This document shows, piece after piece, positions 1 through 11,962 of a stretch of DNA of 64,000 nt (position 1 is the stretch's first letter; each line of letters begins with the position of its first letter). This DNA comes from a virus (lineage: Duplodnaviria > Heunggongvirae > Uroviricota > Caudoviricetes): the IMG/VR virus record IMGVR_UViG_3300042946_001496. One strand, 5' to 3'. The notes under the pieces were generated by a model. The model saw only the letters and a list, made by a program, of their open reading frames with translations. It had not been told where the DNA came from and made no database searches. Position numbers and translations under genes: made by a program.

Positions 1-1
1 T

Positions 2-175
2 GATAAATGCAAAGATTATTTTGATTTAGAAGAAATTTATTGGTGTCAAAACAAAGAATGCCAAGAGCAATACAGATGCACAAAATGTTGTTCTTTAGAT
101 GATATTTCCGCACAATGCCTTGAGCCAGCTTCAAAGTATTCAGAAAGTCATAAAGCCTCGATTTTAAAAAAATGA
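2..175 (+). CDS. Zn-ribbon LLDSF-family small protein, 5'-truncated by window edge
   Basis: In-frame Cys-rich C-terminal half (CxxC..CxxC..CC); its TGA overlaps the next ATG (ATGA). Confidence 0.4.
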   Translation, partial: DKCKDYFDLEEIYWCQNKECQEQYRCTKCCSLDDISAQCLEPASKYSESHKASILKK

Positions 176-387
176 GTCTACTTGATAGCTTTGATCGAAA
201 TAAAACTAAGTGTAAAAATTGCAAAAAGTATTTTGATGAACTCATTTTTGCTGACGAGGGTTACACCTATACTTTTTTTTATGATTGGTGTTTGGAATGT
301 CGCACAAGAGAAAATTCAAAAAAGATTTCTATTGTTTACAGAACAATAGGCGATATAATCAAAATCAATGAACAAAAATCTAATTGA
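172..387 (+). CDS. Zn-ribbon LLDSF-family small protein
   Basis: MSLLDSFDRNKTKCKNCKKYFD N-terminus with two CxxC pairs; first full copy of the tandem paralog array. Confidence 0.6.
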   Translation: MSLLDSFDRNKTKCKNCKKYFDELIFADEGYTYTFFYDWCLECRTRENSKKISIVYRTIGDIIKINEQKSN

Positions 388-541
388 CAGTTTTGATGAA
401 AACAAAGTAAAGTGTATAGAATGTAAAAAATATACAGAAAAAAACATGTATAATATCAAATATTGCAATGACTGTGTTAACAAAATCATGACAGAATGCT
501 TCGATAGATTAAAAATGCAACCCCCTTACAAATTTAAGTAA
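368..541 (+). CDS. Zn-ribbon LLDSF-family small protein
   Basis: MNKNLIDSFDENKVKCIECKKY; 57 aa so below the ORF-track cutoff; start overlaps the previous stop. Confidence 0.5.
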   Translation: MNKNLIDSFDENKVKCIECKKYTEKNMYNIKYCNDCVNKIMTECFDRLKMQPPYKFK

Positions 542-554
542 AAAAGGAAAAACA

Positions 555-1253
555 ATGAACATTTATCAAATTAGCAAAGATGTAAAATACTCAGATGAAG
601 TAGAGTTTGACTATAATGTCGTGCATGACTGCTCTGAACAAGGTTGTCATGATGAAGGAATATGCCGTTGTGGCAAGATAGAAGACATAGAAATCAAAAA
701 AGTCAATCGAACTGTTGTCGATAGTCTTGTCAAGAAGATCAAACTCAGGAAAAATGCAAAAGTCAAAGAGACGGAAGGGCAGTTCGTTTTAGAAGACGAA
801 CAGTTTTTCATGTATTGTGTTGACAGATTGTTTACAATTAACAAGCTTTACGATGGTGATGTTTGGAACATAGATGTGCGTGGAGGATATTATGGAGAAG
901 AAATTGACAACGTTTCTCCTCCGCTTTCTTTTTCAGATGACGTTACTAAAATAGCCAAATTAGATCCACAGCAAAGAATTAAATATGTTCTTACTAGAGA
1001 GTACGGTTACCTTCACGACAAACTAAAAGATAAATCTTTCGTAGAAAGAACAGTTTCTACAAAAGATTTAGTTGTTGGAAACGAATACAGAAAAACAGAC
1101 GGCAAACTTTATGAATGTTCAGAATACCATCTTCCAATAGGAATTTATCTGAAGGACGAAAATTCAGATAAGTATGTTCTTATGGATGGGTATAATAGAT
1201 TTTATGGAATTGTTCCAAACAATAAAACTGTTCAAATTATAAGTGCAGAATAG
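555..1253 (+). CDS. hypothetical protein (232 aa)
   Basis: Long ORF with AGGA-type RBS 8 nt upstream; CxC..CxxC cluster near the N-terminus. Confidence 0.55.
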   Translation: MNIYQISKDVKYSDEVEFDYNVVHDCSEQGCHDEGICRCGKIEDIEIKKVNRTVVDSLVKKIKLRKNAKVKETEGQFVLEDEQFFMYCVDRLFTINKLYDGDVWNIDVRGGYYGEEIDNVSPPLSFSDDVTKIAKLDPQQRIKYVLTREYGYLHDKLKDKSFVERTVSTKDLVVGNEYRKTDGKLYECSEYHLPIGIYLKDENSDKYVLMDGYNRFYGIVPNNKTVQIISAE

Positions 1254-1425
1254 ATGTAGATATTACATGAGAAAAGTAACATCAGATCCTTTATCGAATA
1301 GACAAAAAAGCAAACGAGCTGGACTAGGTTTAAGTTGGTGTCATGGATGCGATCGTAACCTTATAGGAGATGGAGAAAAGTGTAAAGTTTGCGGATATCA
1401 TCATAAACCTAAAAAAATTCGTTAA
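1243..1425 (+). CDS. small basic Cys-rich (zinc-ribbon-like) protein
   Basis: CHGCDRN...CKVCGYHH; overlaps the upstream gene by a few nt. Confidence 0.4.
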   Translation: MQNRCRYYMRKVTSDPLSNRQKSKRAGLGLSWCHGCDRNLIGDGEKCKVCGYHHKPKKIR

Positions 1426-1426
1426 A

Positions 1427-1645
1427 ATGACTAATTTGCACAAAAATCTCGATAGCTTTGATGAAAATAAAGTAAAATGTAGAGACTGTAAAAAATATAT
1501 TGAAAAAGATAGTGCTTCGCCTTTTGTTGATTTAGATAAAAATTTTAATGCTATAAAAGATTATTATCTATGTGGCATCTGTATTGGCGAAAGAATGAAA
1601 AATGGTGTACCAATCCAGCCGTTTGAGCCTCCATTTTTACAGTAA
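1427..1645 (+). CDS. Zn-ribbon LLDSF-family small protein
   Basis: Internal ATG gives MTNLHKNLDSFDENKVKCRDCKKY. Confidence 0.55.
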   Translation: MTNLHKNLDSFDENKVKCRDCKKYIEKDSASPFVDLDKNFNAIKDYYLCGICIGERMKNGVPIQPFEPPFLQ

Positions 1646-1648
1646 CTT

Positions 1649-1882
1649 ATGAATAATCTCGACAGTTTTGACGAAAATAAAAAGAAGTGTGTTTCTTGTC
1701 AAAAATATTTTAATAAAGAAGATTTTAGCACAGAAAAACATGCATTAACAGGAAGAACATTAGTGGCTACTGCTTGTCCATCTTGTGAAGCAAAATCTTG
1801 GGATGAGTTTTGTAAAAAAAATAAATTAAATCGACATCTGCGACCATATACTCCAAAAAAAATCAATAATGAGCAAGCTTGA
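1649..1882 (+). CDS. Zn-ribbon LLDSF-family small protein
   Basis: MNNLDSFDENKKKCVSCQKYFNK with a second CPSC pair. Confidence 0.6.
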   Translation: MNNLDSFDENKKKCVSCQKYFNKEDFSTEKHALTGRTLVATACPSCEAKSWDEFCKKNKLNRHLRPYTPKKINNEQA

Positions 1883-2066
1883 TAGTTTTGATAAAAGTAA
1901 AAAGAAGTGTCAATATTGTGGGAAATATTTTGACAAAAAAGAGCTTAAACGATCAGCATTCCACCAGACTTCACTTTGCCCTAGCTGCTGGAAAAGAGAA
2001 AATGATATGCTGGATAATATAGTTGGCAATGATGATGATTTCTTTAACGAGTATGAATATGAGTGA
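1869..2066 (+). CDS. Zn-ribbon LLDSF-family small protein
   Basis: MSKLDSFDKSKKKCQYCGKYFDK..CPSC; overlapping junction with the previous copy. Confidence 0.6.
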   Translation: MSKLDSFDKSKKKCQYCGKYFDKKELKRSAFHQTSLCPSCWKRENDMLDNIVGNDDDFFNEYEYE

Positions 2067-2232
2067 TCTAGACAGTTTTAATAACTGTAAAATTAAATGC
2101 AAATACTGTAAACATTATTTTGATGTAGCGATAATTAACAAAAACAATTTATGTGAAAAATGTCAAGAAAAAACAGATACAGAGTTCTTGGCTAGCATCA
2201 GGCATTTAATTGGTTTGCTGAAAAATGAATAA
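2059..2232 (+). CDS. Zn-ribbon LLDSF-family small protein
   Basis: MSDLDSFNNCKIKCKYCKHYFD..CEKC. Confidence 0.55.
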   Translation: MSDLDSFNNCKIKCKYCKHYFDVAIINKNNLCEKCQEKTDTEFLASIRHLIGLLKNE

Positions 2233-2428
2233 GCTAGATAGCTTTGATAACAGTAAAGTTAAATGCACTGGCTGTTCTACTTATTTAGACAAAAAAACAT
2301 TGGTTTTTAATGTATGTGATATTTGCCTTCAAAAGGAGCTTGTGTTATGCTTCGCTCCGCTAGTTGAAAATTTAGAAAAAGATTTCTCGGGATTGCCCTA
2401 CCTGTCCGAAGGAAAAAAATGTGAGTGA
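2225..2428 (+). CDS. Zn-ribbon LLDSF-family small protein
   Basis: MNKLDSFDNSKVKCTGCSTYLDK..CDIC. Confidence 0.6.
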   Translation: MNKLDSFDNSKVKCTGCSTYLDKKTLVFNVCDICLQKELVLCFAPLVENLEKDFSGLPYLSEGKKCE

Positions 2429-2633
2429 AGATAACCTCTTGAATAGTTTCAAAGTTTGTTATTGTCCTGATTGTTTTCCTCAAAAAATAATATTACAAAA
2501 AAGCAAACCTGACTCTATGTATCTTGAAGACCGTAAGTGGCATCGAGCCATAGAAAACGACTATATCTATGAGTGTCCAGGGTGTAAATTTCTGTTTCAC
2601 AAAAATGATGCATTAGAATATTCTAATGAGTAA
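2421..2633 (+). CDS. Zn-ribbon LLDSF-family small protein (divergent)
   Basis: MSEDNLLNSFKVCYCPDCF...CPGC. Confidence 0.5.
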   Translation: MSEDNLLNSFKVCYCPDCFPQKIILQKSKPDSMYLEDRKWHRAIENDYIYECPGCKFLFHKNDALEYSNE

Positions 2634-2755
2634 ATTTAACAAAAGTCTATTAGATAATATCCCATCTTTTTTTTTGCAATGAGACAGGAAAAGTTTATTC
2701 ATGTTCATGTTGCCTAACGTATTTTAGCGAAAAATTTCTTATTGAGAGGCAAAAA

Positions 2756-3034
2756 ATGAGCAATCTTGAAAGTTTTGATGAAAGTAAAAAAAAGTGTCAT
2801 GGTTGCAAAAAATACTTTGAGGAATCATCTATTGTTGGTCTTAACGGACAATACTTATGCACACCTTGTTTAAAAGAATCTCGGGTAGCTGTTCAGCAAT
2901 TCATCGATAAAAATTATTTCAGTAAGGAAACCAGCAATTTGAATCAAGCCATGGATGAATTTTTGACATTTATGGAAAAATATGTTGAAATTCAAAAGAA
3001 TTTAATAGAAGATTTTAAAAATGAGCAAACTTGA
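2756..3034 (+). CDS. Zn-ribbon LLDSF-family small protein
   Basis: MSNLESFDESKKKCHGCKKYFEE..CTPC; C-terminus KNEQT overlaps the next start. Confidence 0.6.
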   Translation: MSNLESFDESKKKCHGCKKYFEESSIVGLNGQYLCTPCLKESRVAVQQFIDKNYFSKETSNLNQAMDEFLTFMEKYVEIQKNLIEDFKNEQT

Positions 3035-3194
3035 CAGCTTTGATTACAATAAAAAGAAGTGCCCAAATTGTAAAAATTATTTTTACAAGAAGGAAAAATT
3101 TAAATATTTTATTGATTTCTTTAATAATAAGCGTTATTTTTGTCGAAAGTGCTGGCATGGTTTTGGAGTCTCTTTAATGAAACCATTTAAATAA
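3021..3194 (+). CDS. Zn-ribbon LLDSF-family small protein
   Basis: MSKLDSFDYNKKKCPNCKNYF..CRKC; 57 aa, not in the ORF track. Confidence 0.5.
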   Translation: MSKLDSFDYNKKKCPNCKNYFYKKEKFKYFIDFFNNKRYFCRKCWHGFGVSLMKPFK

Positions 3195-3406
3195 TGAACA
3201 ATCTTGATAGTTTCGACAATAATAAGATTAAATGTAAAGTGTGTGGCAAGTATTTTGATAAAGAAAGTATCTTTTATGATCTATCTAAGTATTGTGAAAA
3301 ATGCTGGCAAGACGTAGGCTTTGACAAAAGCGTCTCAGTGTTTAGACAAAGCGGAAAGTGTATGTTAAGCTGGAACATTCTGAATGCAAAAAATGAGCAA
3401 ACTTGA
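3194..3406 (+). CDS. Zn-ribbon LLDSF-family small protein
   Basis: MNNLDSFDNNKIKCKVCGKYFDK..CEKC. Confidence 0.6.
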   Translation: MNNLDSFDNNKIKCKVCGKYFDKESIFYDLSKYCEKCWQDVGFDKSVSVFRQSGKCMLSWNILNAKNEQT

Positions 3407-3566
3407 TAGTTTCGACAACAATAAAACTAAGTGTAAAAATTGCAAAAAGTATTTTGATAAAGAAAAATTTAAATATTTCGCTCTTTGTGTAAATTGTTGG
3501 GATAGTTTTGTGCGAAATCCGTCCACGTTCCTACAGAACTATTATGATGAAAAACAAAAAATTTAA
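3384..3566 (+). CDS. Zn-ribbon LLDSF-family small protein
   Basis: MSKLDSFDNNKTKCKNCKKYFDK..CVNC. Confidence 0.6.
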   Translation: MQKMSKLDSFDNNKTKCKNCKKYFDKEKFKYFALCVNCWDSFVRNPSTFLQNYYDEKQKI

Positions 3567-3637
3567 TCTATAATGAATCTTGGAAGAAAGGTGGACACCG
3601 ACACAGAAAGTTGGTAGACTGTTTTAGTTGAAATCGA

Positions 3638-3913
3638 TCGAGAATAGTGTAATGGTAGCACAATTGACTTTTTTTTGGAGTGCTTAGAGGGAAACCTTTA
3701 ATGTAGAATCGCTTAAATTCGGTGGACGCTTAACTGCCAATACCGAGCCAAGCCTGGGTTAATTCTCAGGAAGGTGTAGAGACTTAACAGGCGACACCTA
3801 AAGTTTAAAAAACAATGGTGAAGATAAAGTCCAGACTACAAACTCATAAGAGGTAACGAAAGTTATAGTAGTATGTGGTTCAATTAGTCTAGGTCCGAAT
3901 CCTAGTTCTCGAA
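3638..3913 (+). tRNA. tRNA gene interrupted by a group I intron in the anticodon loop (about 205 nt); isotype ambiguous: Lys-UUU or Gln-UUG depending on the exact splice site
   Basis: Acceptor 5' tcgagaa pairs with 3' ttctcga plus discriminator a. D-arm gtgt/aatggta/gcac. Anticodon stem attga (3663-3667) pairs with tcaat (3880-3884) across the insert. T-arm ctagg-tccgaat-cctag. No CCA encoded. No ORF falls in this region. Confidence 0.6.
3673..3877 (+). ncRNA. group I self-splicing intron (candidate)
   Basis: S-like element aagataaagtcc (3821-3832) and R-like element gtagagacttaacag can form P7 (gactt/aagtc). 5' exon ends in U and the intron ends in G. Boundaries are +/- 2 nt. Confidence 0.45.
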
Positions 3914-3920
3914 TTTTTTT

Positions 3921-4406
3921 TTGCAGTCATCTTCAATTCTTGGAGAACCCACAATGGGCATTGATCTTAACACTTATGTTGGTTTTTATTTTACTTTAAG
4001 TAAACTTCCTACATTTGAAAAAAAGGTTAAAGTTCGTAGATGCTCTAATGAATCCCATGGCGTTTGTTACGATAATAAAATTAAATATTGCTCAACTTGT
4101 GGAGAAGCTATCGAATATTTTGAAACTATCGAAAAAGTATTTGATAGCGAATTGTTCTTAGGATCTGAATTCTATTTTACTGAATTCCATGACGAGATTT
4201 ATTTCATGCCAGACTGGAGCGGTTGCTGCACTCATAACTGCAAACATATCAACAACAAACAAGATCAAGTTGCCATAGACTTAAATGATGACTATAAAAA
4301 TAAAGCAAAAGATATATTTATTAAAAAATTAGCCAAACTACAAGAGAAACTTTCCCTTGATATTGAAATAAGTGTTAAATTTGGCGTTATTTGCTATATG
4401 AGTTGA
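3921..4406 (+). CDS. hypothetical Cys-rich protein (161 aa)
   Basis: Long ORF; CxxC-like pairs (CYDNKIKYCSTCGE; CCTHNC). Confidence 0.5.
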   Translation: MQSSSILGEPTMGIDLNTYVGFYFTLSKLPTFEKKVKVRRCSNESHGVCYDNKIKYCSTCGEAIEYFETIEKVFDSELFLGSEFYFTEFHDEIYFMPDWSGCCTHNCKHINNKQDQVAIDLNDDYKNKAKDIFIKKLAKLQEKLSLDIEISVKFGVICYMS

Positions 4407-4424
4407 ACTTTTAGGAGAAATTAA

Positions 4425-4766
4425 ATGTCAACAGTCTTTGTTATAATTACGTTGTTGTTTGGTATTTTTACTTGGTTTTTCTATAGTTCTTTAGATATGT
4501 TTCTTAATGGTGGAGAGTCACTATATAAGAATTTTTTGCAAAGCATGGGTTGGCTTTTTTCTAAAAAAAGAACACAATATATTAAAGATATGGTCAATAG
4601 ATTTGATAGTGGATATGTCGGAGAATATAGTTACCAAGAAATAAGAGAGCAAAATAGATATGCAGAAGTCGCAAATCAAGTTTTGCCAAGTCGATTTCAA
4701 ATAATTTTTATCAACTTTATAATGCCGATAATACCGGTCTTAATCTACGTTCTTTTACACCAATAA
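4425..4766 (+). CDS. small membrane protein
   Basis: AGGAGA RBS; N- and C-terminal hydrophobic helices. Confidence 0.55.
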   Translation: MSTVFVIITLLFGIFTWFFYSSLDMFLNGGESLYKNFLQSMGWLFSKKRTQYIKDMVNRFDSGYVGEYSYQEIREQNRYAEVANQVLPSRFQIIFINFIMPIIPVLIYVLLHQ

Positions 4767-4826
4767 ATGAATATATTGTTTTTCCTAAAAAATTAGCAGA
4801 AAAAATATTTCTTATGAAAACTTTCT

Positions 4827-5039
4827 ATGGTGGAAAGACTCTTGACTTTTTCGAGAAAATCCATGATCATTGAGTTCGCCAAAGAAATTGCAGTCAACTT
4901 AAAAAAATATATTGCGACGGCAGTATTATTTTTTTTATCTTTATTGGTTGTGACAGAAATTATAGAGTTTTTGGCGGGTATAGTAGCTGATAAGATTGAA
5001 TCTTTAATCAACTTTTTGTTAAAAAGGAGTTTAAAATGA
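4827..5039 (+). CDS. small membrane protein
   Basis: Hydrophobic core; chosen over the overlapping minus-strand ORF because of the plus-strand operon context. Confidence 0.35.
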   Translation: MVERLLTFSRKSMIIEFAKEIAVNLKKYIATAVLFFLSLLVVTEIIEFLAGIVADKIESLINFLLKRSLK

Positions 5040-6376
5040 ACAGCTTAACACCAACATTAGCATCATTAATATTTGGTTTAAGAGGCAAAATTTCACCAAA
5101 AGAATACAAAATTATAAAAAGACACCTTGATAGTCACAATAAAAAGTCTAAACCTAAGCCAAAGCCTGTAGTTAAATACAAGCTGCTAGATTCTATTACA
5201 GAATCTAACGATAAAAAGAAATTAATTTTTAATTTCAAGAACGATGCAAGCTTTACTTATAACTTAATAAATAAAAGTTTTAATTTAACGGGCAGTTTAT
5301 CTACTGTAGAGTTTATAAGCCCTGTATTGCCAAAAACTTTAAATTCTGAAAGAGAATTGTTTATAACATCTGCAAAAGAACCCTGGATACAAACCTTTTT
5401 TAAGATTTGTAGACATTGTGATATTTCTTTATTAAAAAGTCGTGGTGCCGGTAAAGCAACCTTAAATAGAATTGAAATAATTTCTAAAATTGAAAAATTT
5501 CAAAATCTAAGCAGCTATGATGGCATAGACAAATTAGTTAGAAACAGTAAATTTAAAACGTCGTTAAAAGACCTGGGGCTTGACTCTTGGTTTATTGACG
5601 CTGCTTTAAAAGATGGCAATCTTTGGCACCACATATCAGAATATCAGAATGCTAAAAAATCTAACTTAATTTCAGAATTTCAATTTTTATGGAACAATTA
5701 CAATTATACAAATATTTGTCGTTTGTATAAAAAGCTAGGAAGATTAATTAAAGATCATGATTATGATTTTATCAAAACAATTGATTATTTAAATGAAGGA
5801 ATGAATAATCAAGGAATTAGACCAATATTTAATCTTGATAACCATGGTATAAAGTACAAAGATGATTCACCATATTATAATTGTGATGATAACTACAAAG
5901 TAGCGATAGATCTGCTTTTAGATTATGTCAAATTTCAGACTGATAAAAATTTTGAAAAGTATCCGAGAAATTTAAAAACAGAAGTAGATAAAGCTTTTTA
6001 CAGAAAAAAATTAATTGAAAGTAAAGCTTTATACGAAGCCTCCAAAGAAAATTTTCAAAAATTAAAAGCTCTTGAATTTGAAGATGAAAATTATTGTATA
6101 ATTGCTCCGCAATCTATAGAAGATATAGTAAAAGAAGGAAGTGTTTTAAATCATTGTGTTGCAAATTATGCTCGCAAAGTAGCATCAGGAAGAAGTAGAA
6201 TACTTTTTATGAGAAAAATCACAAATAAAAATATTCCATTTATAACAATTTCGTTAAGCGGAAATAAAATTGAAATGGCTAGAAGGAAGAATAATAATTT
6301 GGTATATGATTCATCTGTAGAAAAAACATTTTTGAACAAATATACAAATCATTTAAAAAGCTTGTCTAAAAATTGA
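5036..6376 (+). CDS. protein with C-terminal PcfJ-like domain
   Basis: AAGGAG RBS. C-terminal IEDIVKEGSVLNHCVANYARKVASGRSRILFMRK...IPFITISL matches the PcfJ-like core as I recall it. Paralogous to the 37410 ORF (ILSLRDRKNIPHLTFIF..GEMKGKGN). Confidence 0.5.
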   Translation: MNSLTPTLASLIFGLRGKISPKEYKIIKRHLDSHNKKSKPKPKPVVKYKLLDSITESNDKKKLIFNFKNDASFTYNLINKSFNLTGSLSTVEFISPVLPKTLNSERELFITSAKEPWIQTFFKICRHCDISLLKSRGAGKATLNRIEIISKIEKFQNLSSYDGIDKLVRNSKFKTSLKDLGLDSWFIDAALKDGNLWHHISEYQNAKKSNLISEFQFLWNNYNYTNICRLYKKLGRLIKDHDYDFIKTIDYLNEGMNNQGIRPIFNLDNHGIKYKDDSPYYNCDDNYKVAIDLLLDYVKFQTDKNFEKYPRNLKTEVDKAFYRKKLIESKALYEASKENFQKLKALEFEDENYCIIAPQSIEDIVKEGSVLNHCVANYARKVASGRSRILFMRKITNKNIPFITISLSGNKIEMARRKNNNLVYDSSVEKTFLNKYTNHLKSLSKN

Positions 6377-6419
6377 TTTTTTGAAACAAAAACGAGTATT
6401 CTAAACTTTAGGAGAATTT

Positions 6420-7466
6420 ATGAAAGAAACTGAGCGAAAAGACGATGCGATTTCTGTAAAGTCAATGCAGATTCCAACCTTGAGTACGAATTCACCATAT
6501 TACACACATGATGAGTCCTGTTTATTAGAATTTTCTATTCGGCGTCAAAATTTAAATCTTAATACTCACAAAATTTCTATAGACATTATTACCTCTGATG
6601 GTGATCGGAAAAATATTTTAAAAGAATATTTAAGCAAAAAAAAATACACAACCATTAGTAATCAAAACGAGTTCATCGCTACCAGTGATTCTGTTTACAT
6701 TTGTCTTACCAGTGGTTTTATTAGTAATAAAACTTTTATAAAAATTGCTGGGGATTATGAGGAGGTAGAAAAAATAAAAGAAGACTTTTTAAACAAATAT
6801 GAATCAACGGAAAATCAAATTTATATTGATTGGAAATTTTTAACAGAAGAAGGTGTTAGAAATTTAAATTGTCCTTTAGATTTAGATCATACCCCTGTTC
6901 AGGAAATGTATCCTTTTTTGAATTGTTCTTTAAACGAATACTACGAAAAATTCATTCAATCAAAATCAAATATTCTAATACTCAAAGGGCCACCAGGGAC
7001 AGGAAAAACAACATTTATTAAAGGGCTATTACATTTTGCAAAAACTAGTGCTTCATTTGTTCAAGACGAATCACTATTGAATAAAGATATTCTTTTTGTT
7101 GACTTTTTTGAAAGTTCTCGAAAGTTTTTAGTTTGTGAAGATGCTGATATTTTCTTGACTCCAAGATGTAAAGGCAATCAATTCGTTCACAGATTTTTGA
7201 ATGTAGCAGAAGGTTTAATATCCAATAAAGAAAAGAAAATAATTCTAACAACTAATATTCCAAGTGTTAACGACATGGATCAAGCCTTGGTACGACCTGG
7301 GCGGTGCTTTGACATTTTAGAGTTTCCTGAACTTAACAAAGATCAAGCAGAAGCTTTAGCTAAAAAGTTTGATCTTGATTTAAACCTTTCTGATAAGACT
7401 TTTACTGTAGCAGAAATTTTAAACAACAAGAAAAATCAAAAAGTAAAATCTATTGGGTTTTGCTAA
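6420..7466 (+). CDS. AAA+ family ATPase
   Basis: Walker A GPPGTGKT, Walker B LVCEDAD, sensor-1 TTN, ALVRPGRCFD arginine-finger region; AGGAGA RBS. Confidence 0.8.
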   Translation: MKETERKDDAISVKSMQIPTLSTNSPYYTHDESCLLEFSIRRQNLNLNTHKISIDIITSDGDRKNILKEYLSKKKYTTISNQNEFIATSDSVYICLTSGFISNKTFIKIAGDYEEVEKIKEDFLNKYESTENQIYIDWKFLTEEGVRNLNCPLDLDHTPVQEMYPFLNCSLNEYYEKFIQSKSNILILKGPPGTGKTTFIKGLLHFAKTSASFVQDESLLNKDILFVDFFESSRKFLVCEDADIFLTPRCKGNQFVHRFLNVAEGLISNKEKKIILTTNIPSVNDMDQALVRPGRCFDILEFPELNKDQAEALAKKFDLDLNLSDKTFTVAEILNNKKNQKVKSIGFC

Positions 7467-7527
7467 AAACTTGACAAAAACCGTTGACTTGTTAAAATAA
7501 TTTTCCACTCTTTCAAAGGATTTTAAA

Positions 7528-8022
7528 ATGAAAAAACAAATTTTCACTGATCTTGTGTTTGTTGTTACTGTTAATTTTTTGCTCATCACAGGTAGTTTAC
7601 TATTTGTAAAATACAAAGAAGTAGGAAAAATTTCTAAAGAAGATCTTGACGAATATATTGCCACCGAATTAAATTTAAACAATGATTTTAATCTTGAAAA
7701 GCACGTTGTGGTTGAAGCAAAAACTATAGATGAAACTGTTGTTAAAGCGGTTGCTCCTCCGATAGAAGAAAAAGTTTTGACTGACGATTTGCAATCAAAG
7801 GCATATAATATTGGATACAAAAATGGACAGAGAGCTATGTATGTCCAGATGAATATGCAAGTCAACGAAGAAGAGAAGGTCACGGAATATACCAGTTTAG
7901 AAGAGTCGGAAGAAATAAAATCAGAAGAAGATAAAAAGAAGATTGAAGAAATCATCCAGAAGGGCTATGTGGATGGTTATCATCGTGCTTCTGAGAGTTT
8001 TTCTTGTCCTAGGAGTTACTGA
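7528..8022 (+). CDS. membrane-anchored acidic protein
   Basis: N-terminal TM helix then a Glu/Lys-rich region; RBS aaagga. The overlapping minus-strand ORF is rejected. Confidence 0.5.
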   Translation: MKKQIFTDLVFVVTVNFLLITGSLLFVKYKEVGKISKEDLDEYIATELNLNNDFNLEKHVVVEAKTIDETVVKAVAPPIEEKVLTDDLQSKAYNIGYKNGQRAMYVQMNMQVNEEEKVTEYTSLEESEEIKSEEDKKKIEEIIQKGYVDGYHRASESFSCPRSY

Positions 8023-8414
8023 TGAAAATTTTAAACCACATTGTAGACTTTTTTGAGCCAAAATGCTTCTGCTGGTATTGTGGCAAAAAAATGTGTAGTA
8101 TTTTTTATGGCTTCTACGACAGCCATAATGGTAAAAAAATATTTAAATATGCTTGTAGTGATGAAAAATGCAGCGGCTACGAAAAACCAAAAGATGGAAT
8201 TTTTCGTGATGGATACAACAATCCTTTAACGAAAGTGATAATGAAAATGTCTCAAAGAGACATAGTTGAAATTACCAAAGAAAACCAACAGATTAAAAAA
8301 ATCTTAATTGAATTGTTTGATTCTATCAATAATAAGTATCCCAATAAAGATCCTCAAAAATGGGACTGCCCGTATTTCCAACAACTTTCTGATCTGATCA
8401 AGTATAAAGCATGA
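8022..8414 (+). CDS. Cys-rich hypothetical protein
   Basis: CFCWYCGKKMC...ACSDEKCSGY; ATGA coupling to the upstream gene. Confidence 0.5.
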   Translation: MKILNHIVDFFEPKCFCWYCGKKMCSIFYGFYDSHNGKKIFKYACSDEKCSGYEKPKDGIFRDGYNNPLTKVIMKMSQRDIVEITKENQQIKKILIELFDSINNKYPNKDPQKWDCPYFQQLSDLIKYKA

Positions 8415-8419
8415 ACTAA

Positions 8420-8692
8420 ATGATTCATTTTAATGATATGACTACTTTGGGTTGCGATCCTGCAAATAGTGCAGAAGAGTTTTTCGAAAAACTATTGCTG
8501 TGGAAAAATGAAGAAAAGCCTTCAGAGGCTGCTGTGGCAACAGCTAAAAAATTCATTGAAATGATGCAAGAAAGACCATTGTCTTTAAGTGTGTTTGAAG
8601 ATATAATAATAATCTCTTACAAAGAAAAAAATCGTTTTAAAGAAATTGAAGTAAAAGACAGTGTTGGTGAATTTTTCACATATAAAACATGA
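8420..8692 (+). CDS. hypothetical protein
   Basis: ORF within the plus-strand operon. Confidence 0.45.
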   Translation: MIHFNDMTTLGCDPANSAEEFFEKLLLWKNEEKPSEAAVATAKKFIEMMQERPLSLSVFEDIIIISYKEKNRFKEIEVKDSVGEFFTYKT

Positions 8693-8839
8693 GTAAATTT
8701 ACCAACATAAAAATAGCTTTAAAAATTCTTAATTTTATTGACTCTTATATTTTTTATAAAAGAAAAAGAAAAGTAAAATTATTAAACACTTTCTTGAATG
8801 AAAGAATTTTGACAGAAGATACGGGACCAAGATAAATTA

Positions 8840-9472
8840 ATGACGCCAGACTTCAAACTATGTAATTCATTCGACTCATTGCGAGAAGCAATGCAGAACA
8901 CAAAACAGACAACGGAAATGTCTGTTTATGAACATGGTGTAGATGTATACAAACACTTCAATGATTTGTGTACAATCTTAAATGATTATTCTCAATCAGA
9001 TTACTGGAAAATTCCAGAATGTATTATCAATAATTCAAAACAAATTTTATCTAATCTCCACACACCAGAAGTTATATTTCAATACACTATTTGGCATGAT
9101 TGTGGCAAGCCGTTTGTAGAGACAACAGACAGTGAAGGAAAAATTCACTTCCCCAACCATGCAGAAGCATCAAAAAAACTATATTTTAGACTTACTGGAG
9201 ATGGAATTGTCTCTGATTTAATGGGTTGGGATATGGCTATTCATAGTGAGCCATCTGAGGAGATTGACCGTTTATTGAAAACCGAATGGTCAAAAAAAGA
9301 TGCTTTCACTTTACTTTTAGCCACCTTGGCTGAACTGCACAGCAATGCTAATATGTTTGGCGGAAAAGACACAACTAGTTTCAAGACTAAGTACACAAAA
9401 ATTGAAAGACGAGCCAAACAGATTTGCAAGTCGTTACTTGACGATCAACTAATGGGTATCGAAAGTTTTTAA
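8840..9472 (+). CDS. putative HD-domain phosphohydrolase
   Basis: H..(YEHGVDVYKH), HD (WHDCGKP), H/H (HFPNHAEAS) spacing resembles the HD superfamily. Confidence 0.45.
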   Translation: MTPDFKLCNSFDSLREAMQNTKQTTEMSVYEHGVDVYKHFNDLCTILNDYSQSDYWKIPECIINNSKQILSNLHTPEVIFQYTIWHDCGKPFVETTDSEGKIHFPNHAEASKKLYFRLTGDGIVSDLMGWDMAIHSEPSEEIDRLLKTEWSKKDAFTLLLATLAELHSNANMFGGKDTTSFKTKYTKIERRAKQICKSLLDDQLMGIESF

Positions 9473-9487
9473 AAAAAGGAAAAAAAA

Positions 9488-9925
9488 ATGAACTTAAACA
9501 CTATGATTGAATTTTTGAACTGCGATCTTAGAAATGAATGGAAGCATCTTCGCTTTTATCTTTATCATGCAAGTGTTGTGGTTGGCTTGCATCATGAAGA
9601 ATATAAAGAATTATTTTTAAAAGAAGCTGCGAATGAGATGCAACACGTAACAGAATTTTCTAGCCTTATTCTTGGTCTTGGTGGAACTCCTACAAATGAA
9701 TCAAACGATTTTCCTTTACTTGAAAAGCCAGAAGAAATTATTAAATATGCATTATCGATGGAAAGAGAAGTAGTTGCTAATTATGTTCGAAGAATAGATA
9801 ATGCAAATGAACTCGGAAATCAAGACAGTGTTGATGCACGTTGGATTGAAATATTTTTAGAAGGACAAATTCAAAAAAGTCGTGAAGATATTGACAAGTA
9901 TGAGCAGATAATCAAAGGGTTTTAA
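9488..9925 (+). CDS. hypothetical protein, possibly ferritin-like four-helix bundle
   Basis: ExxH-type motifs (EAANEMQH; EREVVANY); weak. Confidence 0.35.
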   Translation: MNLNTMIEFLNCDLRNEWKHLRFYLYHASVVVGLHHEEYKELFLKEAANEMQHVTEFSSLILGLGGTPTNESNDFPLLEKPEEIIKYALSMEREVVANYVRRIDNANELGNQDSVDARWIEIFLEGQIQKSREDIDKYEQIIKGF

Positions 9926-9927
9926 TA

Positions 9928-10188
9928 ATGAAAGAAAAAAAGATATCAGAAATTGCATACTTTCTTTGGCAAGAAGCTGGCTGTCCAGAAAACAAAGATT
10001 TAGATTTCTGGCTGGCTGCTGAAAAGAAATATAAGTTACTGCAAACTTTTGAAAACAATAAAACTGATGACGTTGCTCAATTTAAAAGGATTTACATTCC
10101 TCTTATTAAAAAATTAAAATTATATCCAAAGTTAATTAATTGGCAGTCCAGCTCTTCATATCAGATAGATCCTGCTGTGTTGAAGTGA
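9928..10188 (+). CDS. DUF2934-like protein
   Basis: ISEIAYFLWQEAGCPENKDLDFWLAAE matches the DUF2934 pattern IA..AY.LW...G.PEG.DL.DWL.AE; C-terminus YKLLQTFENNK. Confidence 0.65.
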   Translation: MKEKKISEIAYFLWQEAGCPENKDLDFWLAAEKKYKLLQTFENNKTDDVAQFKRIYIPLIKKLKLYPKLINWQSSSSYQIDPAVLK

Positions 10189-10195
10189 ATAAAAA

Positions 10196-10390
10196 ATGAA
10201 CAATAAAAATTTATTAACATCATTTGAAAAAAAATGTCCACTTTGCAAAAAAGGAAAATTAAAAGAAAACACGATCGAGAGAGTTCGAGTTGACGGATTA
10301 CTAACTGAGAGATATATTATCTTTAATTTTTGCGAAACATGTCCATACGCCTCCTACAAGGAGATTGAAAGTGTCCACAGCGAAAATTGA
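10196..10390 (+). CDS. Zn-ribbon LLDSF-family small protein (outlier copy)
   Basis: MNNKNLLTSFEKKCPLCKKG...CETCPY. Confidence 0.5.
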   Translation: MNNKNLLTSFEKKCPLCKKGKLKENTIERVRVDGLLTERYIIFNFCETCPYASYKEIESVHSEN

Positions 10391-10394
10391 AAAT

Positions 10395-10832
10395 ATGATA
10401 GATAAATTAAAAGAACTTGATAATAATACTTTTTCTTTAATTCAAGAAATAAATAATATTACTAAAGATATAAACCAGCGTGTAGACATTATATGGAGAA
10501 GTTTGTGCGATTTATCTGGTAGAAAAATAAATTGGTATAGTTTTAACAATGACTCTCCTCCATTCGATACAGGGGAAACCACTGGTGGTAGTTTTGATAT
10601 CAGAATACACAAAGACTTTATAAGCTTGGTTGGAGAATTTGACAAAATAGGACATGGTCATTTATATGATAACGGTTTCCCTACAGAATTTTTATATGAG
10701 TCTAACGAAAAATGGAACAAAAAAGTATTAGATGATCTTCAAAGAGTTAAAAAAGAAAAAGAAATACTCAATCAAATACAAAATAAACTATCTGCAGAAG
10801 AATGGGAGTATCTAAAAGATAGATTAAAATGA
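10395..10832 (+). CDS. hypothetical protein
   Basis: Start taken at the first ATG (MIDKLKEL); the ORF-track start is a TTG. Confidence 0.4.
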   Translation: MIDKLKELDNNTFSLIQEINNITKDINQRVDIIWRSLCDLSGRKINWYSFNNDSPPFDTGETTGGSFDIRIHKDFISLVGEFDKIGHGHLYDNGFPTEFLYESNEKWNKKVLDDLQRVKKEKEILNQIQNKLSAEEWEYLKDRLK

Positions 10833-11074
10833 ATCTTAAAGATATTGTAGAAATTTCTTACATTGCACAAACTATATGGGAAAGCTCTGGCTGTCCTTCA
10901 GAAGAAGATTCAACTATCTTAAAACAAGCAACATCTCAATATAAACTATTGAGTACATTTGAAGAAAACAAATCTGTATCTGGATCCGGTTTTGCGTGGT
11001 CGAATTATACTGTAGAAGATTTAGGCAAAATGATTAAAAGATGGTTTCCCTCAAAAAAGAACAAATTACAATAG
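10829..11074 (+). CDS. DUF2934-like protein (divergent)
   Basis: IVEISYIAQTIWESSGCPSEEDS..YKLLSTFEENK. Confidence 0.55.
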   Translation: MNLKDIVEISYIAQTIWESSGCPSEEDSTILKQATSQYKLLSTFEENKSVSGSGFAWSNYTVEDLGKMIKRWFPSKKNKLQ

Positions 11075-11113
11075 AACAGTTTAATGAACCAATGCTTTGC
11101 GAGGTAAAAGAGC

Positions 11114-11293
11114 ATGATGACTTTTTATGAATATTTATCTATAAAAGATAAAATTGAAATATCAGAAATTGCACGGTTTTTTTGGCAAGAAGCAGGCTGT
11201 CCAGAAAACAAAGATTTAGATTTCTGGCTGCTTGCTGAAAAGAAGTATAAATTATTAAAAACATTCAGTAATAGTGCCATATTGAAAATTTAA
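11114..11293 (+). CDS. DUF2934-like protein
   Basis: GAGG RBS; ISEIARFFWQEAGCPENKDLDFWLLAEKKYKLLKTF; about 65 nt nearly identical to the 9928 gene. Confidence 0.55.
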   Translation: MMTFYEYLSIKDKIEISEIARFFWQEAGCPENKDLDFWLLAEKKYKLLKTFSNSAILKI

Positions 11294-11380
11294 ATAATAA
11301 ATAAAATATTAAAAACCGCTGGACTTTCTCCTGTTTTGTGCTATAATATTGGTCTTGTTAAGGAAAAACAGGAGAAAAAA

Positions 11381-11578
11381 ATGCCTAAAAAATATGCTTT
11401 ACTTTCTGTAAAAAATGGAATAGCGACAGTAAAACATAGATGTTGGTTTTGCAAAAAAAAACATAAACTAGAATATCCTTTAGATGATGTTGGAACAAAA
11501 AATAAAGTAAATTCTTTGTGTTTAAAATGTGAAAACGATCTAGATTATTTTAAGAAAACAAATCCAGAAATTTGTTAA
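11381..11578 (+). CDS. small zinc-ribbon protein
   Basis: CAGGAG RBS; CWFCKKK...CLKCEND. Confidence 0.5.
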   Translation: MPKKYALLSVKNGIATVKHRCWFCKKKHKLEYPLDDVGTKNKVNSLCLKCENDLDYFKKTNPEIC

Positions 11579-11582
11579 ATTA

Positions 11583-11789
11583 ATGAATACCGATAATAAA
11601 GATAAATTATTTGATTCTTTTAAAAATGAAAATCTATACAAAAACGAAAATCTATACAAAAGAAAACTAAAAGCTATCTGGAGTGTTGAGACACATCAAG
11701 ATTTGCGTTCATTTTGTAATACCGAAGCAGAAGCTGAATTGTCTAAAATTTTATCAGAATTATTTCAAAGCTTAAAGGAAGAAACTTGA
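11583..11789 (+). CDS. hypothetical protein with KLFDSF N-terminus
   Basis: MNTDNKDKLFDSF; contains an 18-nt tandem duplication (NENLYK x2). Confidence 0.45.
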   Translation: MNTDNKDKLFDSFKNENLYKNENLYKRKLKAIWSVETHQDLRSFCNTEAEAELSKILSELFQSLKEET

Positions 11790-11857
11790 GCATTTGTGCA
11801 ACAACAGGTAAGACTAAGTATAACAGTGATAAAGAAGCTGCTGTTGGTCTTGAAAAT

Positions 11858-11962
11858 ATGAAAAAACATCGCCCTGAGTATGAAGGCGAACCTTATTTTT
11901 GTATGTATTGCAGCAGTTATCATTTTGGAAAAAGACCAGAAAAGAAAAAGAAAGTAAAATGA
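11858..11962 (+). CDS. small Cys-containing basic peptide (possible TTG start at 11786)
   Basis: MKKHRPEYEGEPYFCMYCSSYHFG; its TGA overlaps the downstream ATG. Confidence 0.3.
   Translation: MKKHRPEYEGEPYFCMYCSSYHFGKRPEKKKKVK

What the first reader, a model, noticed from the sequence alone, without database searches (positions are those of the whole stretch)
3638..3913. tRNA gene split by an approximately 205-nt group I intron
- A complete cloverleaf can be drawn only if 3663-3667 (attga) pairs with 3880-3884 (tcaat) across a roughly 205-nt insert.
- The insert carries group-I-like R (gtagagacttaacag) and S (aagataaagtcc) elements able to form P7.
- It starts after a U and ends in G.
- The acceptor stem (7 bp), D-arm and T-arm (ctagg/tccgaat/cctag) are canonical, and no CCA is encoded.
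- The isotype is Lys(UUU) or Gln(UUG) depending on the splice site.

Intron-containing tRNAs are uncommon in phages and can influence host specificity and tRNA supply.
Basis: partly seen in the sequence, partly recalled or inferred. Interest (0 to 1): 0.65.

Follow-up and report, generated by a model that had tools for sequence, protein, structure and literature searches.

The report
Self-splicing intron in phage tRNA-Gln gene
A glutamine tRNA gene of an uncultured freshwater phage is interrupted in its anticodon by a compact 205-base group I (self-splicing) intron, one of a large family of such introns in phage tRNA genes that default tRNA finders miss.

Summary
Window 3638-3913 (+) is a tRNA gene split by a 205-nt group I intron, 3671-3875.

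- **Intron identity.** Rfam Intron_gpI scores 58.1 bits against a gathering cut-off of 50, but only when the region is searched alone. The default whole-window Rfam and ARAGORN runs found nothing.
- **Isotype.** It is Gln(UUG), not Lys(UUU), and the intron sits between U34 and U35. Intron-less genes of the same tRNA family read ...GACUU|UGG..., and five of them have exons identical to those of an intron-containing relative. The internal guide G3678AGU pairs with A3667CUU, with a U3670·G3678 wobble. The P10 guide fits the 3' exon start UGG.
- **Structure.** P1-P9 including the P7 pseudoknot is paired in 92.9% of cells across 26 relatives (31-42% when partners are slid). The spliced cloverleaf is paired in 97.6% of cells.
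- **Context.** The intron has no ORF and no homing endonuclease lies nearby.
- **Relatives.** The closest are ORF-less introns in phage tRNA-Leu(UAA) genes. More than 100 IMG/VR contigs carry the family's signature words. About 55 sequence-distinct genes were classified, in Leu, Gln, Asn, Ala and CAU tRNAs. The cultured jumbo phage Atu_ph07 has an unannotated example.

Verdict: a new member of a known kind. Self-splicing itself is inferred, not shown.

The parts
3638..3670 (+). 5' exon of tRNA-Gln(UUG): tRNA positions 1-34 (acceptor 5' strand, D arm, anticodon-stem 5' strand, C32 U33 U34)
   Evidence: ARAGORN intron mode. Near-identical to the 5' halves of intron-less Gln(UUG) genes in IMG/VR. 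Cloverleaf covariation.
3671..3875 (+). Group I intron, 205 nt, no ORF, IC3-like compact architecture
   Evidence: Rfam RF00028 at 58.1 bits against GA 50. 77% identity to the tRNA-Leu(UAA) intron of huge phage LR756501. Covariation on alignment A1. No ORF of 40 aa or more inside.
3876..3913 (+). 3' exon: U35 G36 G37 U38, anticodon-stem 3' strand, 4-nt variable loop, T arm, acceptor 3' strand, discriminator A3913; no CCA
3667..3681 (+). P1: A3667-U3681, C3668-G3680, U3669-A3679, U3670·G3678 (5' splice site wobble), U3671·G3677; loop 3672-3676. The P10 guide U3675 U3676 G3677 can pair with G3878 G3877 U3876.
   Evidence: Read from the sequence. The guide sequence and P10 guide change with the exon sequence across isotypes.
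3685..3700 (+). P2 hairpin (6 bp, GAAA tetraloop 3691-3694)
   Evidence: 96.8% of cells paired; all 6 pairs show changes on both sides (helix 4).
3709..3714 (+). P3 5' strand (pairs with 3789-3794)
   Evidence: 96.1% paired; 6 of 6 pairs show changes on both sides (helix 5).
3719..3746 (+). P4 (3719-3724 with 3741-3746), J4/5 (3725-3727), short P5 (3728-3729 with 3736-3737)
   Evidence: P4 100% paired, P5 94.2% (helices 6 and 7). G3725 replaces an A that is nearly invariant in the family.
3747..3775 (+). P6 (3747-3749 with 3773-3775) and P6a hairpin (3753-3758 with 3765-3770)
   Evidence: helices 8-11. P6a was recovered by the minimum-energy fold. The loop-proximal P6a pairs align poorly (helix 11, 66% paired).
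3779..3785 (+).
   Evidence: 99.4% of cells paired; 3 pairs change on both sides (helix 12).
3789..3794 (+). P3 3' strand
   Evidence: helix 5.
3797..3818 (+). P8 hairpin
   Evidence: helices 13 and 14 (94.7% and 90.9% paired; 5 pairs change on both sides).
3819..3832 (+).
   Evidence: Highly conserved columns in A1; P7 pairing.
3835..3872 (+). P9.0 (3835-3839 with 3868-3872) enclosing P9a (3843-3845 with 3850-3852) and P9b (3853-3857 with 3862-3866, GAAA loop)
   Evidence: P9.0 97.7% paired; P9b 99.2% paired with 4 pairs changing on both sides (helices 15-18).
3875..3875 (+). Terminal guanosine (omega G), last intron base
   Evidence: Invariant G in all 26 aligned relatives. In the relative L018, the alignment to intron-less genes breaks exactly after the equivalent G.
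3914..3922 (+). Run of nine T directly after the discriminator base; possible end of the transcript
   Evidence: Sequence only. Not called by the terminator scan. Inference.
3592..3620 (+). Promoter-like site TGGACA-17-TAGACT, 18 nt upstream of the tRNA
   Evidence: Consensus match only (4 sites found against 2.2 expected by chance). Weak.

Best explanation
Window 3638-3913 encodes the precursor of a phage tRNA-Gln with anticodon UUG. A 205-nt, ORF-less, IC3-like group I ribozyme (3671-3875) interrupts its anticodon loop between U34 and U35.

**Proposed mechanism (standard group I chemistry; inferred, not shown here).**
1. The precursor is transcribed.
2. The intron folds into P1-P9 with the P3/P7 pseudoknot.
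3. The internal guide G3678AGU3681 pairs with the last four exon bases A3667CUU3670, placing the U3670·G3678 wobble at the 5' splice site.
4. A free guanosine bound in P7 attacks after U3670.
5. G3875 then takes the guanosine site, and U3675UG3677 aligns the 3' exon start U3876GG3878 (P10).
6. The 3'-OH of U3670 attacks after G3875.
7. The ligated 71-nt product has the anticodon loop C U U U G G U. It is then trimmed and given CCA by cellular or phage enzymes.

**Likely role and origin.** The tRNA reads CAA, which makes up 78% of Gln codons in the window's ORFs. The intron most likely came from the closely related introns of phage tRNA-Leu(UAA) genes. Those genes share the same 5' target ACUU and the same guide GAGU.
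For: **Shown here**
- Rfam Intron_gpI scores 58.1 bits against a cut-off of 50, E 3.4e-14.
- ARAGORN in intron mode finds a tRNA at 3638-3913 with a 205-nt intron.
- The product spliced at 3670|3876 is called tRNA-Gln(ttg), 71 nt.
- 28 IMG/VR contigs carry the same tRNA body without a group I intron, and 26 of them read gactt|TGG... or gactt|TGA..., that is Gln(UUG). Five have exons identical to those of the intron-containing L018.
- L018 aligns to those genes with a break exactly at the intron ends.
- By homology the window's intron ends ...gtagtatG|TGG, just as the tRNA-Leu introns end ...gtagtaaG|AAA.
- P1 and P10 guides change with the exons. GAGU pairs with ACUU and GGAU or GAAU with AUUU. 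UUU guides the Leu exon start AAA, and CCG, CUG, CCA or UUG guide the Gln exon start UGG.
- Core structure on 26 relatives: 92.9% of cells paired against 31-42% when partners are slid. 42 of 63 pairs change on both sides, and no shuffle of 500 reaches the observed values.
- Cloverleaf on 10 tRNAs: 97.6% paired, 16 of 21 pairs change on both sides.
- The window matches 92 of 96 highly conserved family columns.
- The same sequence, identical or one base different, recurs in three further metagenome assemblies. Two shorter Logan contigs cover only its 3' part.
- Eleven other Gln(UUG) genes carry related introns at the same site.
- CAA is used 265 times against 73 for CAG.

**Inferred**: self-splicing itself, which aminoacyl-tRNA synthetase charges the tRNA, and the transfer from Leu genes.
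Against: - No transcript or splicing data exist for this locus.
- P1 has only 4-5 pairs, and the window's P10 would consist of three wobble pairs (U·G, G·U, G·U).
- J4/5 has G3725 where 24 of 25 relatives have A, at a position that in other group I introns contacts the splice-site wobble pair.
- The T loop has C55 instead of the near-universal U55. One other intron-containing relative, L297, shares this.
- The default whole-window Rfam scan did not report the hit.
- The tRNA is called Gln from its anticodon, its U1-A72 pair and its family. No isotype-specific model was run.
Confidence: 0.9

Rival explanations
1. The same split tRNA, spliced two bases further downstream (5' exon ends at U3672, intron ends at G3877). 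This gives tRNA-Lys(UUU) with the intron after position 36.
For: This splice also follows a U and ends in G. ARAGORN accepts the product as tRNA-Lys(ttt).
Against: - Intron-less family members read CUU|UGG, never CUUUU|GU.
- The conserved intron 3' end in relatives is ...GTAGTA(A/T/C)G, which places the terminal G at 3875.
- The family's guide GAGU pairs with ACUU and puts the wobble at U3670. U3672 would lie in the P1 loop.
- U1-A72 is typical of bacterial tRNA-Gln, whereas tRNA-Lys normally has G1-C72 (my own knowledge, not tested here).
Confidence: 0.02
2. A decayed relic: the intron no longer splices, or splices poorly, so the locus is a tRNA pseudogene.
For: - The window has unusual bases: G3725 in J4/5, a weak all-wobble P10, and C55 in the T loop.
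- No expression data exist.
Against: - All 52 invariant family columns and 92 of 96 highly conserved columns are kept.
- Every helix can form in the window's own sequence.
- Each of the three oddities recurs in another family member. L135 also has G in J4/5, L136 has a partly wobble P10, and L297 has the same T-loop start.
- The locus is unchanged in independent assemblies.
Confidence: 0.07
3. The intron is not just a tolerated selfish insert. The phage keeps it because it does something, for example by delaying or gating maturation of the phage tRNA, or by breaking up a DNA or RNA target of a nuclease that recognises the anticodon loop.
For: - The family recurs in many large phages and in several tRNA isotypes. 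Some contigs carry more than one split tRNA: three places of the family on contig 3300027741_000022 (one confirmed as a Gln gene) and two split genes on 3300032332_001787.
- The introns lack homing endonuclease genes, so persistence by homing is not evident.
- The guide sequences are kept matched to each host tRNA.
Against: - Intron-less genes with identical exons exist in other phages, so the intron is dispensable for the tRNA.
- Matched guides are equally expected for a neutral intron that must splice so as not to harm its host gene.
- No data here bear on timing or defence.
Confidence: 0.15

Closest known systems
[quoted passage not shown]
   Same: - It sits in the anticodon loop between positions 34 and 35, after ...ACUU. 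PMC13011429 gives 34/35 as the usual Leu site.
- It is compact, has no ORF, and has the same helix order with P9.0 and P9 capped by a GAAA loop.
- The window's nearest relatives are phage tRNA-Leu(UAA) introns, at 77-81% identity.
   Different: - The host gene is tRNA-Gln(UUG), not Leu.
- The P10 guide is adapted to the exon start UGG instead of AAA.
- The genome is a phage.
- I did not align the window to the experimentally studied Anabaena sequence, so the IC3 label rests on resemblance and on my own knowledge.
Azoarcus sp. BH72 tRNA-Ile(CAU) intron (IC3; crystal and cryo-EM structures, e.g. PMC13168695)
   Same: Similar small size (about 200 nt), no peripheral P5abc domain, and a tRNA anticodon-loop host. 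From memory, the core strings (AAAUUCGG.GAAAC, CCGAGCCAAGC, GGUGUAGAGACU) are nearly the same.
   Different: The insertion site is different (after the third anticodon base, 36/37, from my own knowledge), as are the guide sequence and the P2 and P9 details. The host is bacterial, not phage.
[quoted passage not shown]
   Same: These are tRNA genes missed by standard tRNA finders because of a group I intron in the anticodon loop. Those authors showed accurate self-splicing in vitro.
   Different: Those introns are subgroup IA, sit at 35/36, and occur in bacterial genomes. That survey covered 4,934 bacterial genomes and no phages.
Classical phage group I introns (T4 td, nrdB, nrdD; SPO1 and Twort introns)
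   Same: Self-splicing group I introns carried by virulent phages.
   Different: All of them interrupt protein-coding genes, and many encode homing endonucleases. The 2014 review PMC3984707 states that every phage intron known then lay in a protein-coding gene despite the many phage tRNA genes.
Unannotated phage tRNA-Leu(UAA) introns found here (Agrobacterium phage Atu_ph07, NC_042013; huge phage LR756501)
   Same: Same intron family, same 34/35 site, same GAGU guide.
   Different: The host is Leu rather than Gln. The Atu_ph07 intron is longer (278 nt) and scores 48.9 bits, just under the Rfam cut-off.

Membership tests
Group I intron (Rfam RF00028) | Covariance-model score at or above the curated gathering score | tested here: met
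   58.1 bits against 50, E 3.4e-14, full model 1-253 matched. The whole-window gathering scan did not report it.
Group I intron (Rfam RF00028) | P1 formed by an internal guide sequence, with a U·G wobble at the 5' splice site | tested here: met
   A3667CUU3670 pairs with G3678AGU3681, with U3670·G3678. The guide changes with the exon sequence in relatives.
Group I intron (Rfam RF00028) | Conserved core P3-P8 with the P3/P7 pseudoknot and a bulged base in P7 | tested here: met
   Paired cells: P3 96.1%, P4 100%, P6 98.7%, P7 99.4%, P8 91-95%, with many changes on both sides of a pair. Slid controls give 31-42%.
Group I intron (Rfam RF00028) | Intron ends in guanosine (omega G) | tested here: met
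   G3875, an invariant column in 26 relatives.
Group I intron (Rfam RF00028) | Guanosine-dependent self-splicing | not testable with these tools
   Needs in vitro transcription and a splicing assay, or RNA sequencing.
tRNA anticodon-loop group I introns of the tRNA-Leu(UAA) type (IC3) | Insertion between tRNA positions 34 and 35 | tested here: met
   Intron-less genes of the same tRNA family and the break points of L018 against them; ARAGORN on the spliced product.
tRNA anticodon-loop group I introns of the tRNA-Leu(UAA) type (IC3) | Host gene is tRNA-Leu(UAA) | tested here: not met
   The host is tRNA-Gln(UUG). The window is a relative of the Leu introns sitting in another isotype.
tRNA anticodon-loop group I introns of the tRNA-Leu(UAA) type (IC3) | Assignment to subgroup IC3 by a subgroup classifier or by alignment to reference IC3 introns | not tested
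   No subgroup models were available. The label rests on the compact architecture and on homology to tRNA-Leu introns.
tRNA-Gln(UUG) | Cloverleaf with a 7-nt anticodon loop and anticodon UUG after splicing | tested here: met
   ARAGORN calls tRNA-Gln(ttg), 71 nt. Covariation: 97.6% of cells paired.
tRNA-Gln(UUG) | Bacterial Gln identity features (weak U1-A72 pair, U35, G36) and charging with glutamine | tested here: inconclusive
   U1-A72, U35 and G36 are present. The discriminator is A73 and position 37 is G, which differs from E. coli tRNA-Gln (my own knowledge). Charging cannot be tested here.
Mobile group I intron with homing endonuclease | An endonuclease ORF inside the intron or next to it | tested here: not met
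   No ORF of 40 aa or more lies in 3567-3920. The flanking small ORFs give only weak zinc-ribbon matches.

The most novel reading that the evidence does not exclude
Phage tRNA genes, mostly those of large freshwater, marine and soil phages, are a sizeable and so far undescribed reservoir of ORF-less IC3 group I introns. These introns move between tRNA isotypes by reverse splicing at short shared targets such as ACUU in both Leu(UAA) and Gln(UUG), then re-tune their P10 guide. Phages retain them because they gate tRNA maturation or remove a nuclease target in the anticodon loop. The window's tRNA-Gln intron would be one such transfer.
Probability: 0.2. Interest if true: 0.75.

Novelty: new member of a known kind. 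Interest (0 to 1): 0.55.

Why it matters
1. **Missed genes.** Default tRNA finders and a default whole-window Rfam scan miss this gene, and tRNAscan-SE was not designed for such introns (PMC8450103). Phage tRNA repertoires, and the codon-usage or host arguments built on them, are therefore undercounted. In Agrobacterium phage Atu_ph07 a 'hypothetical protein' is annotated over the 3' end of an unannotated split tRNA-Leu gene.

2. **A gap in the literature.** A 2014 review states that all known phage introns lie in protein-coding genes (PMC3984707). This locus and its relatives (about 55 sequence-distinct split genes classified in IMG/VR) show that phage tRNA genes are also hosts, in at least Leu, Gln, Asn, Ala and CAU tRNAs.

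3. **Isotype switching.** Closely related introns sit in Leu(UAA) and Gln(UUG) genes that share the 5' target ACUU, and their guide sequences have adapted to each. This makes switching of ORF-less introns between isotypes directly testable.

4. **Possible use.** Very compact natural ribozymes of 191-205 nt are candidate material for permuted-intron RNA circularisation, which currently relies on the Anabaena tRNA-Leu and T4 td introns (my own knowledge).

Tried and rejected
- **Default scans.** Default ARAGORN and the whole-window Rfam gathering scan found nothing. These were false negatives, resolved by ARAGORN's intron mode and a local Rfam search.
- **ARAGORN's isotype call.** In intron mode ARAGORN says 'His(gtg)'. 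I rejected this because it places the intron without regard to the rule that a group I intron follows a U and ends in G.
- **Lys(UUU) splice variant.** Rejected; see the rival explanations.
- **Close relatives among deposited phages.** Megablast of window 1-12000 against 50,697 phage records found nothing.
- **Homing endonuclease.** None found in or beside the intron.
- **Bacterial tRNA-Gln introns.** The genome scan stopped at 120 rows and showed Tyr, Thr, Leu, Met, Arg, Lys, Ser and Asn hosts but no Gln. Absence is therefore not established.
- **Table S5 of PMC13011429.** This table lists 333 bacterial tRNA introns, but the stored file is cut short and could not be read.
- **Degenerate junction pattern.** ATAGTRGTANGTGGNTC gave mostly chance matches. 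Only 7 of the 116 new loci passed the family profile.
- **Literature.** I found no paper describing group I introns in phage tRNA genes. Statements that Lak megaphage tRNAs 'contain introns' do not say what kind.

Full report
**1. What is there**

  - a 7-bp acceptor stem (3638-3644 with 3906-3912);
  - a D arm (G3647-U3650 with G3658-C3661) whose loop AAUGGUA carries G18 and G19;
  - an anticodon stem that forms only across the insert (3663-3667 with 3880-3884);
  - a T arm (3889-3893 / 3894-3900 / 3901-3905);
  - discriminator A3913 followed by nine T, with no CCA.
- Default ARAGORN found no tRNA in the 64-kb window. The whole-window Rfam scan at gathering thresholds found nothing.
- Searched alone, the region matches Rfam Intron_gpI over the full model at 58.1 bits (cut-off 50, E 3.4e-14), covering 3661-3856.
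- A profile built from the family alignment hits the window only here (nhmmer E 2.9e-52). The window's own sequence is one of the 26 rows of that alignment.

**2. Splice sites and isotype**

Two placements obey the rule that the intron follows a U and ends in G. Splicing at 3670|3876 gives Gln(UUG). Splicing at 3672|3878 gives Lys(UUU). Three independent lines choose the first.

- *Homology of the intron ends.* The intron is 77% identical to one in a tRNA-Leu(UAA) gene of the 735-kb uncultured phage LR756501. There the ends are unambiguous...GGGACUU|AUGG...GUAGUAAG|AAAAUCC. The window aligns as ...UUGACUU|UUUU...GUAGUAUG|UGGUUC.
- *Intron-less genes.* A scan of IMG/VR with the window's 5' exon found 28 contigs that carry the same tRNA body without a group I intron.
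  - 26 of them are Gln(UUG) genes reading ...GACUU UGGAUC... or ...GACUU UGACUC.... The other two are the variants L052 and L050 described in the passing observations.
  - Five have exons identical to those of the intron-containing relative L018.
  - L018 aligns to them with a break exactly at its intron ends.
- *Guide sequences.* The internal guide G3678AGU3681 pairs with A3667CUU3670 and puts the wobble at U3670·G3678.
  - Across the family the guide follows the exon: GAGU for ACUU, and GGAU or GAAU for AUUU.
  - The three bases before the guide follow the 3' exon: UUU for the Leu start AAA, and CCG, CUG, CCA or UUG for the Gln start UGG.

The gene is therefore tRNA-Gln(UUG) with the intron at 34/35. 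The mature anticodon loop is C32 U33 U34 U35 G36 G37 U38.

**3. Anatomy of the intron (window coordinates)**

| Element | Position |
|---|---|
| P1 | 3667-3671 with 3677-3681 |
| P2 | 3685-3690 with 3695-3700, GAAA loop |
| P3 | 3709-3714 with 3789-3794 |
| P4 | 3719-3724 with 3741-3746 |
| J4/5 | 3725-3727 |
| P5 (short) | 3728-3729 with 3736-3737 |
| P6 | 3747-3749 with 3773-3775 |
| P6a | 3753-3758 with 3765-3770 |
| P7 | 3779, 3781-3785 with 3827-3832; A3780 bulged |
| P8 | 3797-3805 with 3811-3818 |
| J8/7 | 3819-3826 |
| P9.0 | 3835-3839 with 3868-3872 |
| P9a | 3843-3845 with 3850-3852 |
| P9b | 3853-3857 with 3862-3866, GAAA loop |
| Terminal G | 3875 |

- There is no ORF of 40 aa or more on either strand.
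- The minimum-energy fold of the precursor recovers the acceptor, D and T arms and P2, P3, P4, P5, P6a, P8 and P9b on its own. Its z-score against shuffles is -2.27.

**4. Comparative support**

- I aligned 26 distinct precursors, each with 12 nt of exon on either side of the intron (A1). I then counted the structure above on that alignment.
  - 92.9% of 1,567 cells form standard pairs, against 31-42% when the 3' partners are slid by 1-3 columns.
  - 42 of 63 pairs show changes on both sides.
  - The covariation score is 0.483 against 0.07-0.10 for the slid controls. No shuffle of 500 reaches the observed values.
  - P2, P3, P8 and P9b are especially rich in compensatory changes. P4, P6 and P7 are nearly invariant.
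- The window keeps all 52 invariant columns and 92 of 96 highly conserved ones. The exceptions are 3674 (P1 loop), 3725 (J4/5, A to G), 3759 (P6a loop) and 3850 (P9a).
- For the ligated exons I aligned ten tRNAs: five spliced, four intron-less Gln genes, and one variant with anticodon UCA. They give 97.6% paired cells and 16 of 21 pairs with changes on both sides.
- Eight of the ten start with a U1-A72 pair.

**5. Genomic context**

- The window is 100% identical to a 25-kb contig of JGI sample 3300002835 and 99.98% identical to one of sample 3300044617. It also matches Logan and ENA assemblies and a second JGI contig with a B570J prefix. The source appears to be a freshwater population; I infer this from the sample names and did not look them up.
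- Nearly all ORFs are on the + strand and many are small. GC content is 29-37%.
- Many ORFs match PHROG families of unknown function. Others match an endonuclease family that Pfam identifies as UvdE, a thymidylate kinase and a metallophosphoesterase.
- The AAA protein at 6420-7466 has its best relatives in jumbo phages of 235-380 kb.
- I conclude that this is part of a large phage genome. No structural genes were identified in the window.
- This is the only tRNA in the 64 kb. CAA outnumbers CAG by 265 to 73 in the window's long ORFs.
- The flanking ORFs are small proteins with weak zinc-ribbon matches; none is a homing endonuclease.
- A promoter-like site at 3592-3620 is a consensus match only. 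The T run at 3914-3922 was read from the sequence and was not called by the terminator scan.

**6. The family**

- Two short conserved words from P7/P9 occur in more than 100 IMG/VR contigs.
- About 55 sequence-distinct split genes were classified by splicing in silico. Their hosts are:
  - mostly tRNA-Leu(UAA) at 34/35;
  - Gln(UUG) at 34/35;
  - Asn(GUU) at 33/34, 35/36 and 36/37;
  - Ala(UGC) at 34/35;
  - a CAU tRNA at 33/34;
  - Leu(CAA) and Leu(UAA) at 33/34.
- A further scan added seven Gln(UUG) cases, which makes twelve with the window.
- Many of the contigs exceed 100 kb.
- The cultured Agrobacterium jumbo phage Atu_ph07 carries an unannotated tRNA-Leu(UAA) gene with a 278-nt intron of this family.
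None was in a Gln gene.
- The window's nearest intron is L136, also in a Gln gene, at 83% identity. Leu introns are almost as close, at 78-81%.
- In a neighbour-joining tree without bootstraps, the Gln introns fall into at least three groups interleaved with Leu introns. This suggests more than one switch of host isotype but does not prove it.

**7. How it most likely works**

- This is standard group I chemistry, inferred from the anatomy.
  - Guanosine attacks after U3670, within the P1 wobble pair.
  - G3875 and P10 then position the 3' exon.
  - The exons are ligated into a 71-nt tRNA-Gln(UUG).
  - The ends are processed and CCA is added.
[quoted passage not shown] I take this from the title of Zaug et al. 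1993, cited in PMC3984707. The same stem, 3663-3667 with 3880-3884, is present here.
- What is shown here is the sequence, the structure, its conservation and the matched guides. Catalysis and charging are not shown.

**8. Comparison with what is known, and novelty**

- The kind of element is well known: a group I intron in a bacterial tRNA anticodon loop.
- What I could not find described is a tRNA-Gln host and a phage location.
  - The 2014 review says all phage introns known then were in protein-coding genes (PMC3984707).
  - The 2026 survey of 4,934 bacterial genomes lists fMet, Leu, Arg, Asn and Asp sites in its text and covers no phages (PMC13011429).
  - Papers on Lak megaphages and on jumbo phages mention tRNA 'introns' without saying what kind they are.
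- My literature access is limited to open-access text, so prior description elsewhere cannot be excluded.
- I rate this a new member of a known kind, of moderate interest. The interest comes mainly from the size and host breadth of the overlooked phage family that it belongs to.

**9. Caveats**

- There is no RNA evidence.
- The window's P10 is weak.
- G3725 and C55 are unusual.
- The IC3 label was not tested with subgroup models.
- The phage assignment rests on gene content, not on structural genes.
- The family counts come from exact-word scans and are lower bounds. The tree has no support values.

Noticed in passing
L269 (NC_042013.1, Agrobacterium phage Atu_ph07, record ~112890-113251, minus strand): This cultured 490-kb jumbo phage has an unannotated tRNA-Leu(UAA) gene split at 34/35 by a 278-nt group I intron (ARAGORN intron mode; Rfam 48.9 bits, just under the cut-off). 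RefSeq annotates a 'hypothetical protein' (FDI40_gp154) across the end of the intron and the 3' exon.
   Followed up: partly
L043 (IMGVR_UViG_3300035670_000121): A tRNA-Leu(UAA) gene carries a related intron that lies before the anticodon stem (about position 26/27), with an intact anticodon arm CAGACTTAAAATCTG in the 3' exon. A group I intron outside the anticodon loop is unusual. The 2026 bacterial survey describes its group I tRNA introns only at anticodon-loop positions.
   Followed up: partly
L007, L009, L011, L031, L033, L035, L048, L085 and others (IMG/VR): Many intron-containing tRNAs with anticodon UAA have only a 4-nt variable region instead of the long variable arm expected of tRNA-Leu. 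ARAGORN calls them Leu from the anticodon alone. Their true identity is unclear.
   Followed up: no
L052 (IMGVR_UViG_3300014039_000017): A tRNA with the same D arm and anticodon stem as the Gln family has the loop CUUCAAA, so its anticodon is UCA and it would read UGA. It could be an opal suppressor or a Trp-at-UGA decoder in a 147-kb viral contig.
   Followed up: no
L050 (IMGVR_UViG_3300031885_000006): A member of the same Gln-like tRNA family has an insert of about 22 nt (TTGGCTAGACGGCCAACAAGT) in the anticodon loop. That is far too short for a group I intron. Its nature is unknown.
   Followed up: no
L002 (Pelagibacter phage HTVC120P, MH598807) and L003 (uncultured phage Deep1-GF2-KM23-C739, KT997847): Related compact group I introns split the major capsid genes of marine podophages. 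KT997847 has two introns at 78 and 77 bits (one inside the capsid gene, one just downstream of it). In HTVC120P the match lies between two ORFs that are both annotated 'capsid protein', gp29 and gp30.
   Followed up: partly
L149-L268 (bacterial genome contigs): The same intron subfamily, defined by the exact word AAAGTCCAGACTACAAAC, is common in gut Clostridia and Bacilli genome bins. There it sits in tRNA-Tyr(GUA) at 35/36 (48 loci) and tRNA-Thr(UGU) at 36/37 (29 loci). Single cases occur in Lys, Ser and Asn tRNAs, two in Arg, and four each in Leu and Met.
   Followed up: partly
L099, L112, L338 (all IMGVR_UViG_3300027741_000022, 187 kb); L031 and L276 (IMGVR_UViG_3300032332_001787, 230 kb): Single phage contigs carry more than one member of the family. 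Contig 3300032332_001787 has two split genes (a UAA tRNA and a Gln). Contig 3300027741_000022 has three places that match family words; only L338 was confirmed as a split Gln gene.
   Followed up: no
window 51587-52138 (+): A 183-aa metallophosphoesterase (Pfam Metallophos_2) has homologues at 44-50% identity lying about 1-1.5 kb from the intron-containing tRNA genes in at least ten IMG/VR loci (for example L012, L014, L044, L007, L038). In the window it is 48 kb from the tRNA. This may be plain synteny among related phages or a link to tRNA metabolism.
   Followed up: no
window 9943-10038 and 11159-11254: Two 96-nt stretches are 90.6% identical. They lie in two small neighbouring genes that both carry Pfam DUF2934, so this looks like a local gene duplication.
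   Followed up: no
L018, L276, L336, L342, L301 (IMG/VR): In several phages the tRNA-Gln(UUG) gene, with or without the intron, lies directly downstream of a tRNA with anticodon UGU (Thr), and the pair is conserved. The window lacks this upstream tRNA.
   Followed up: no
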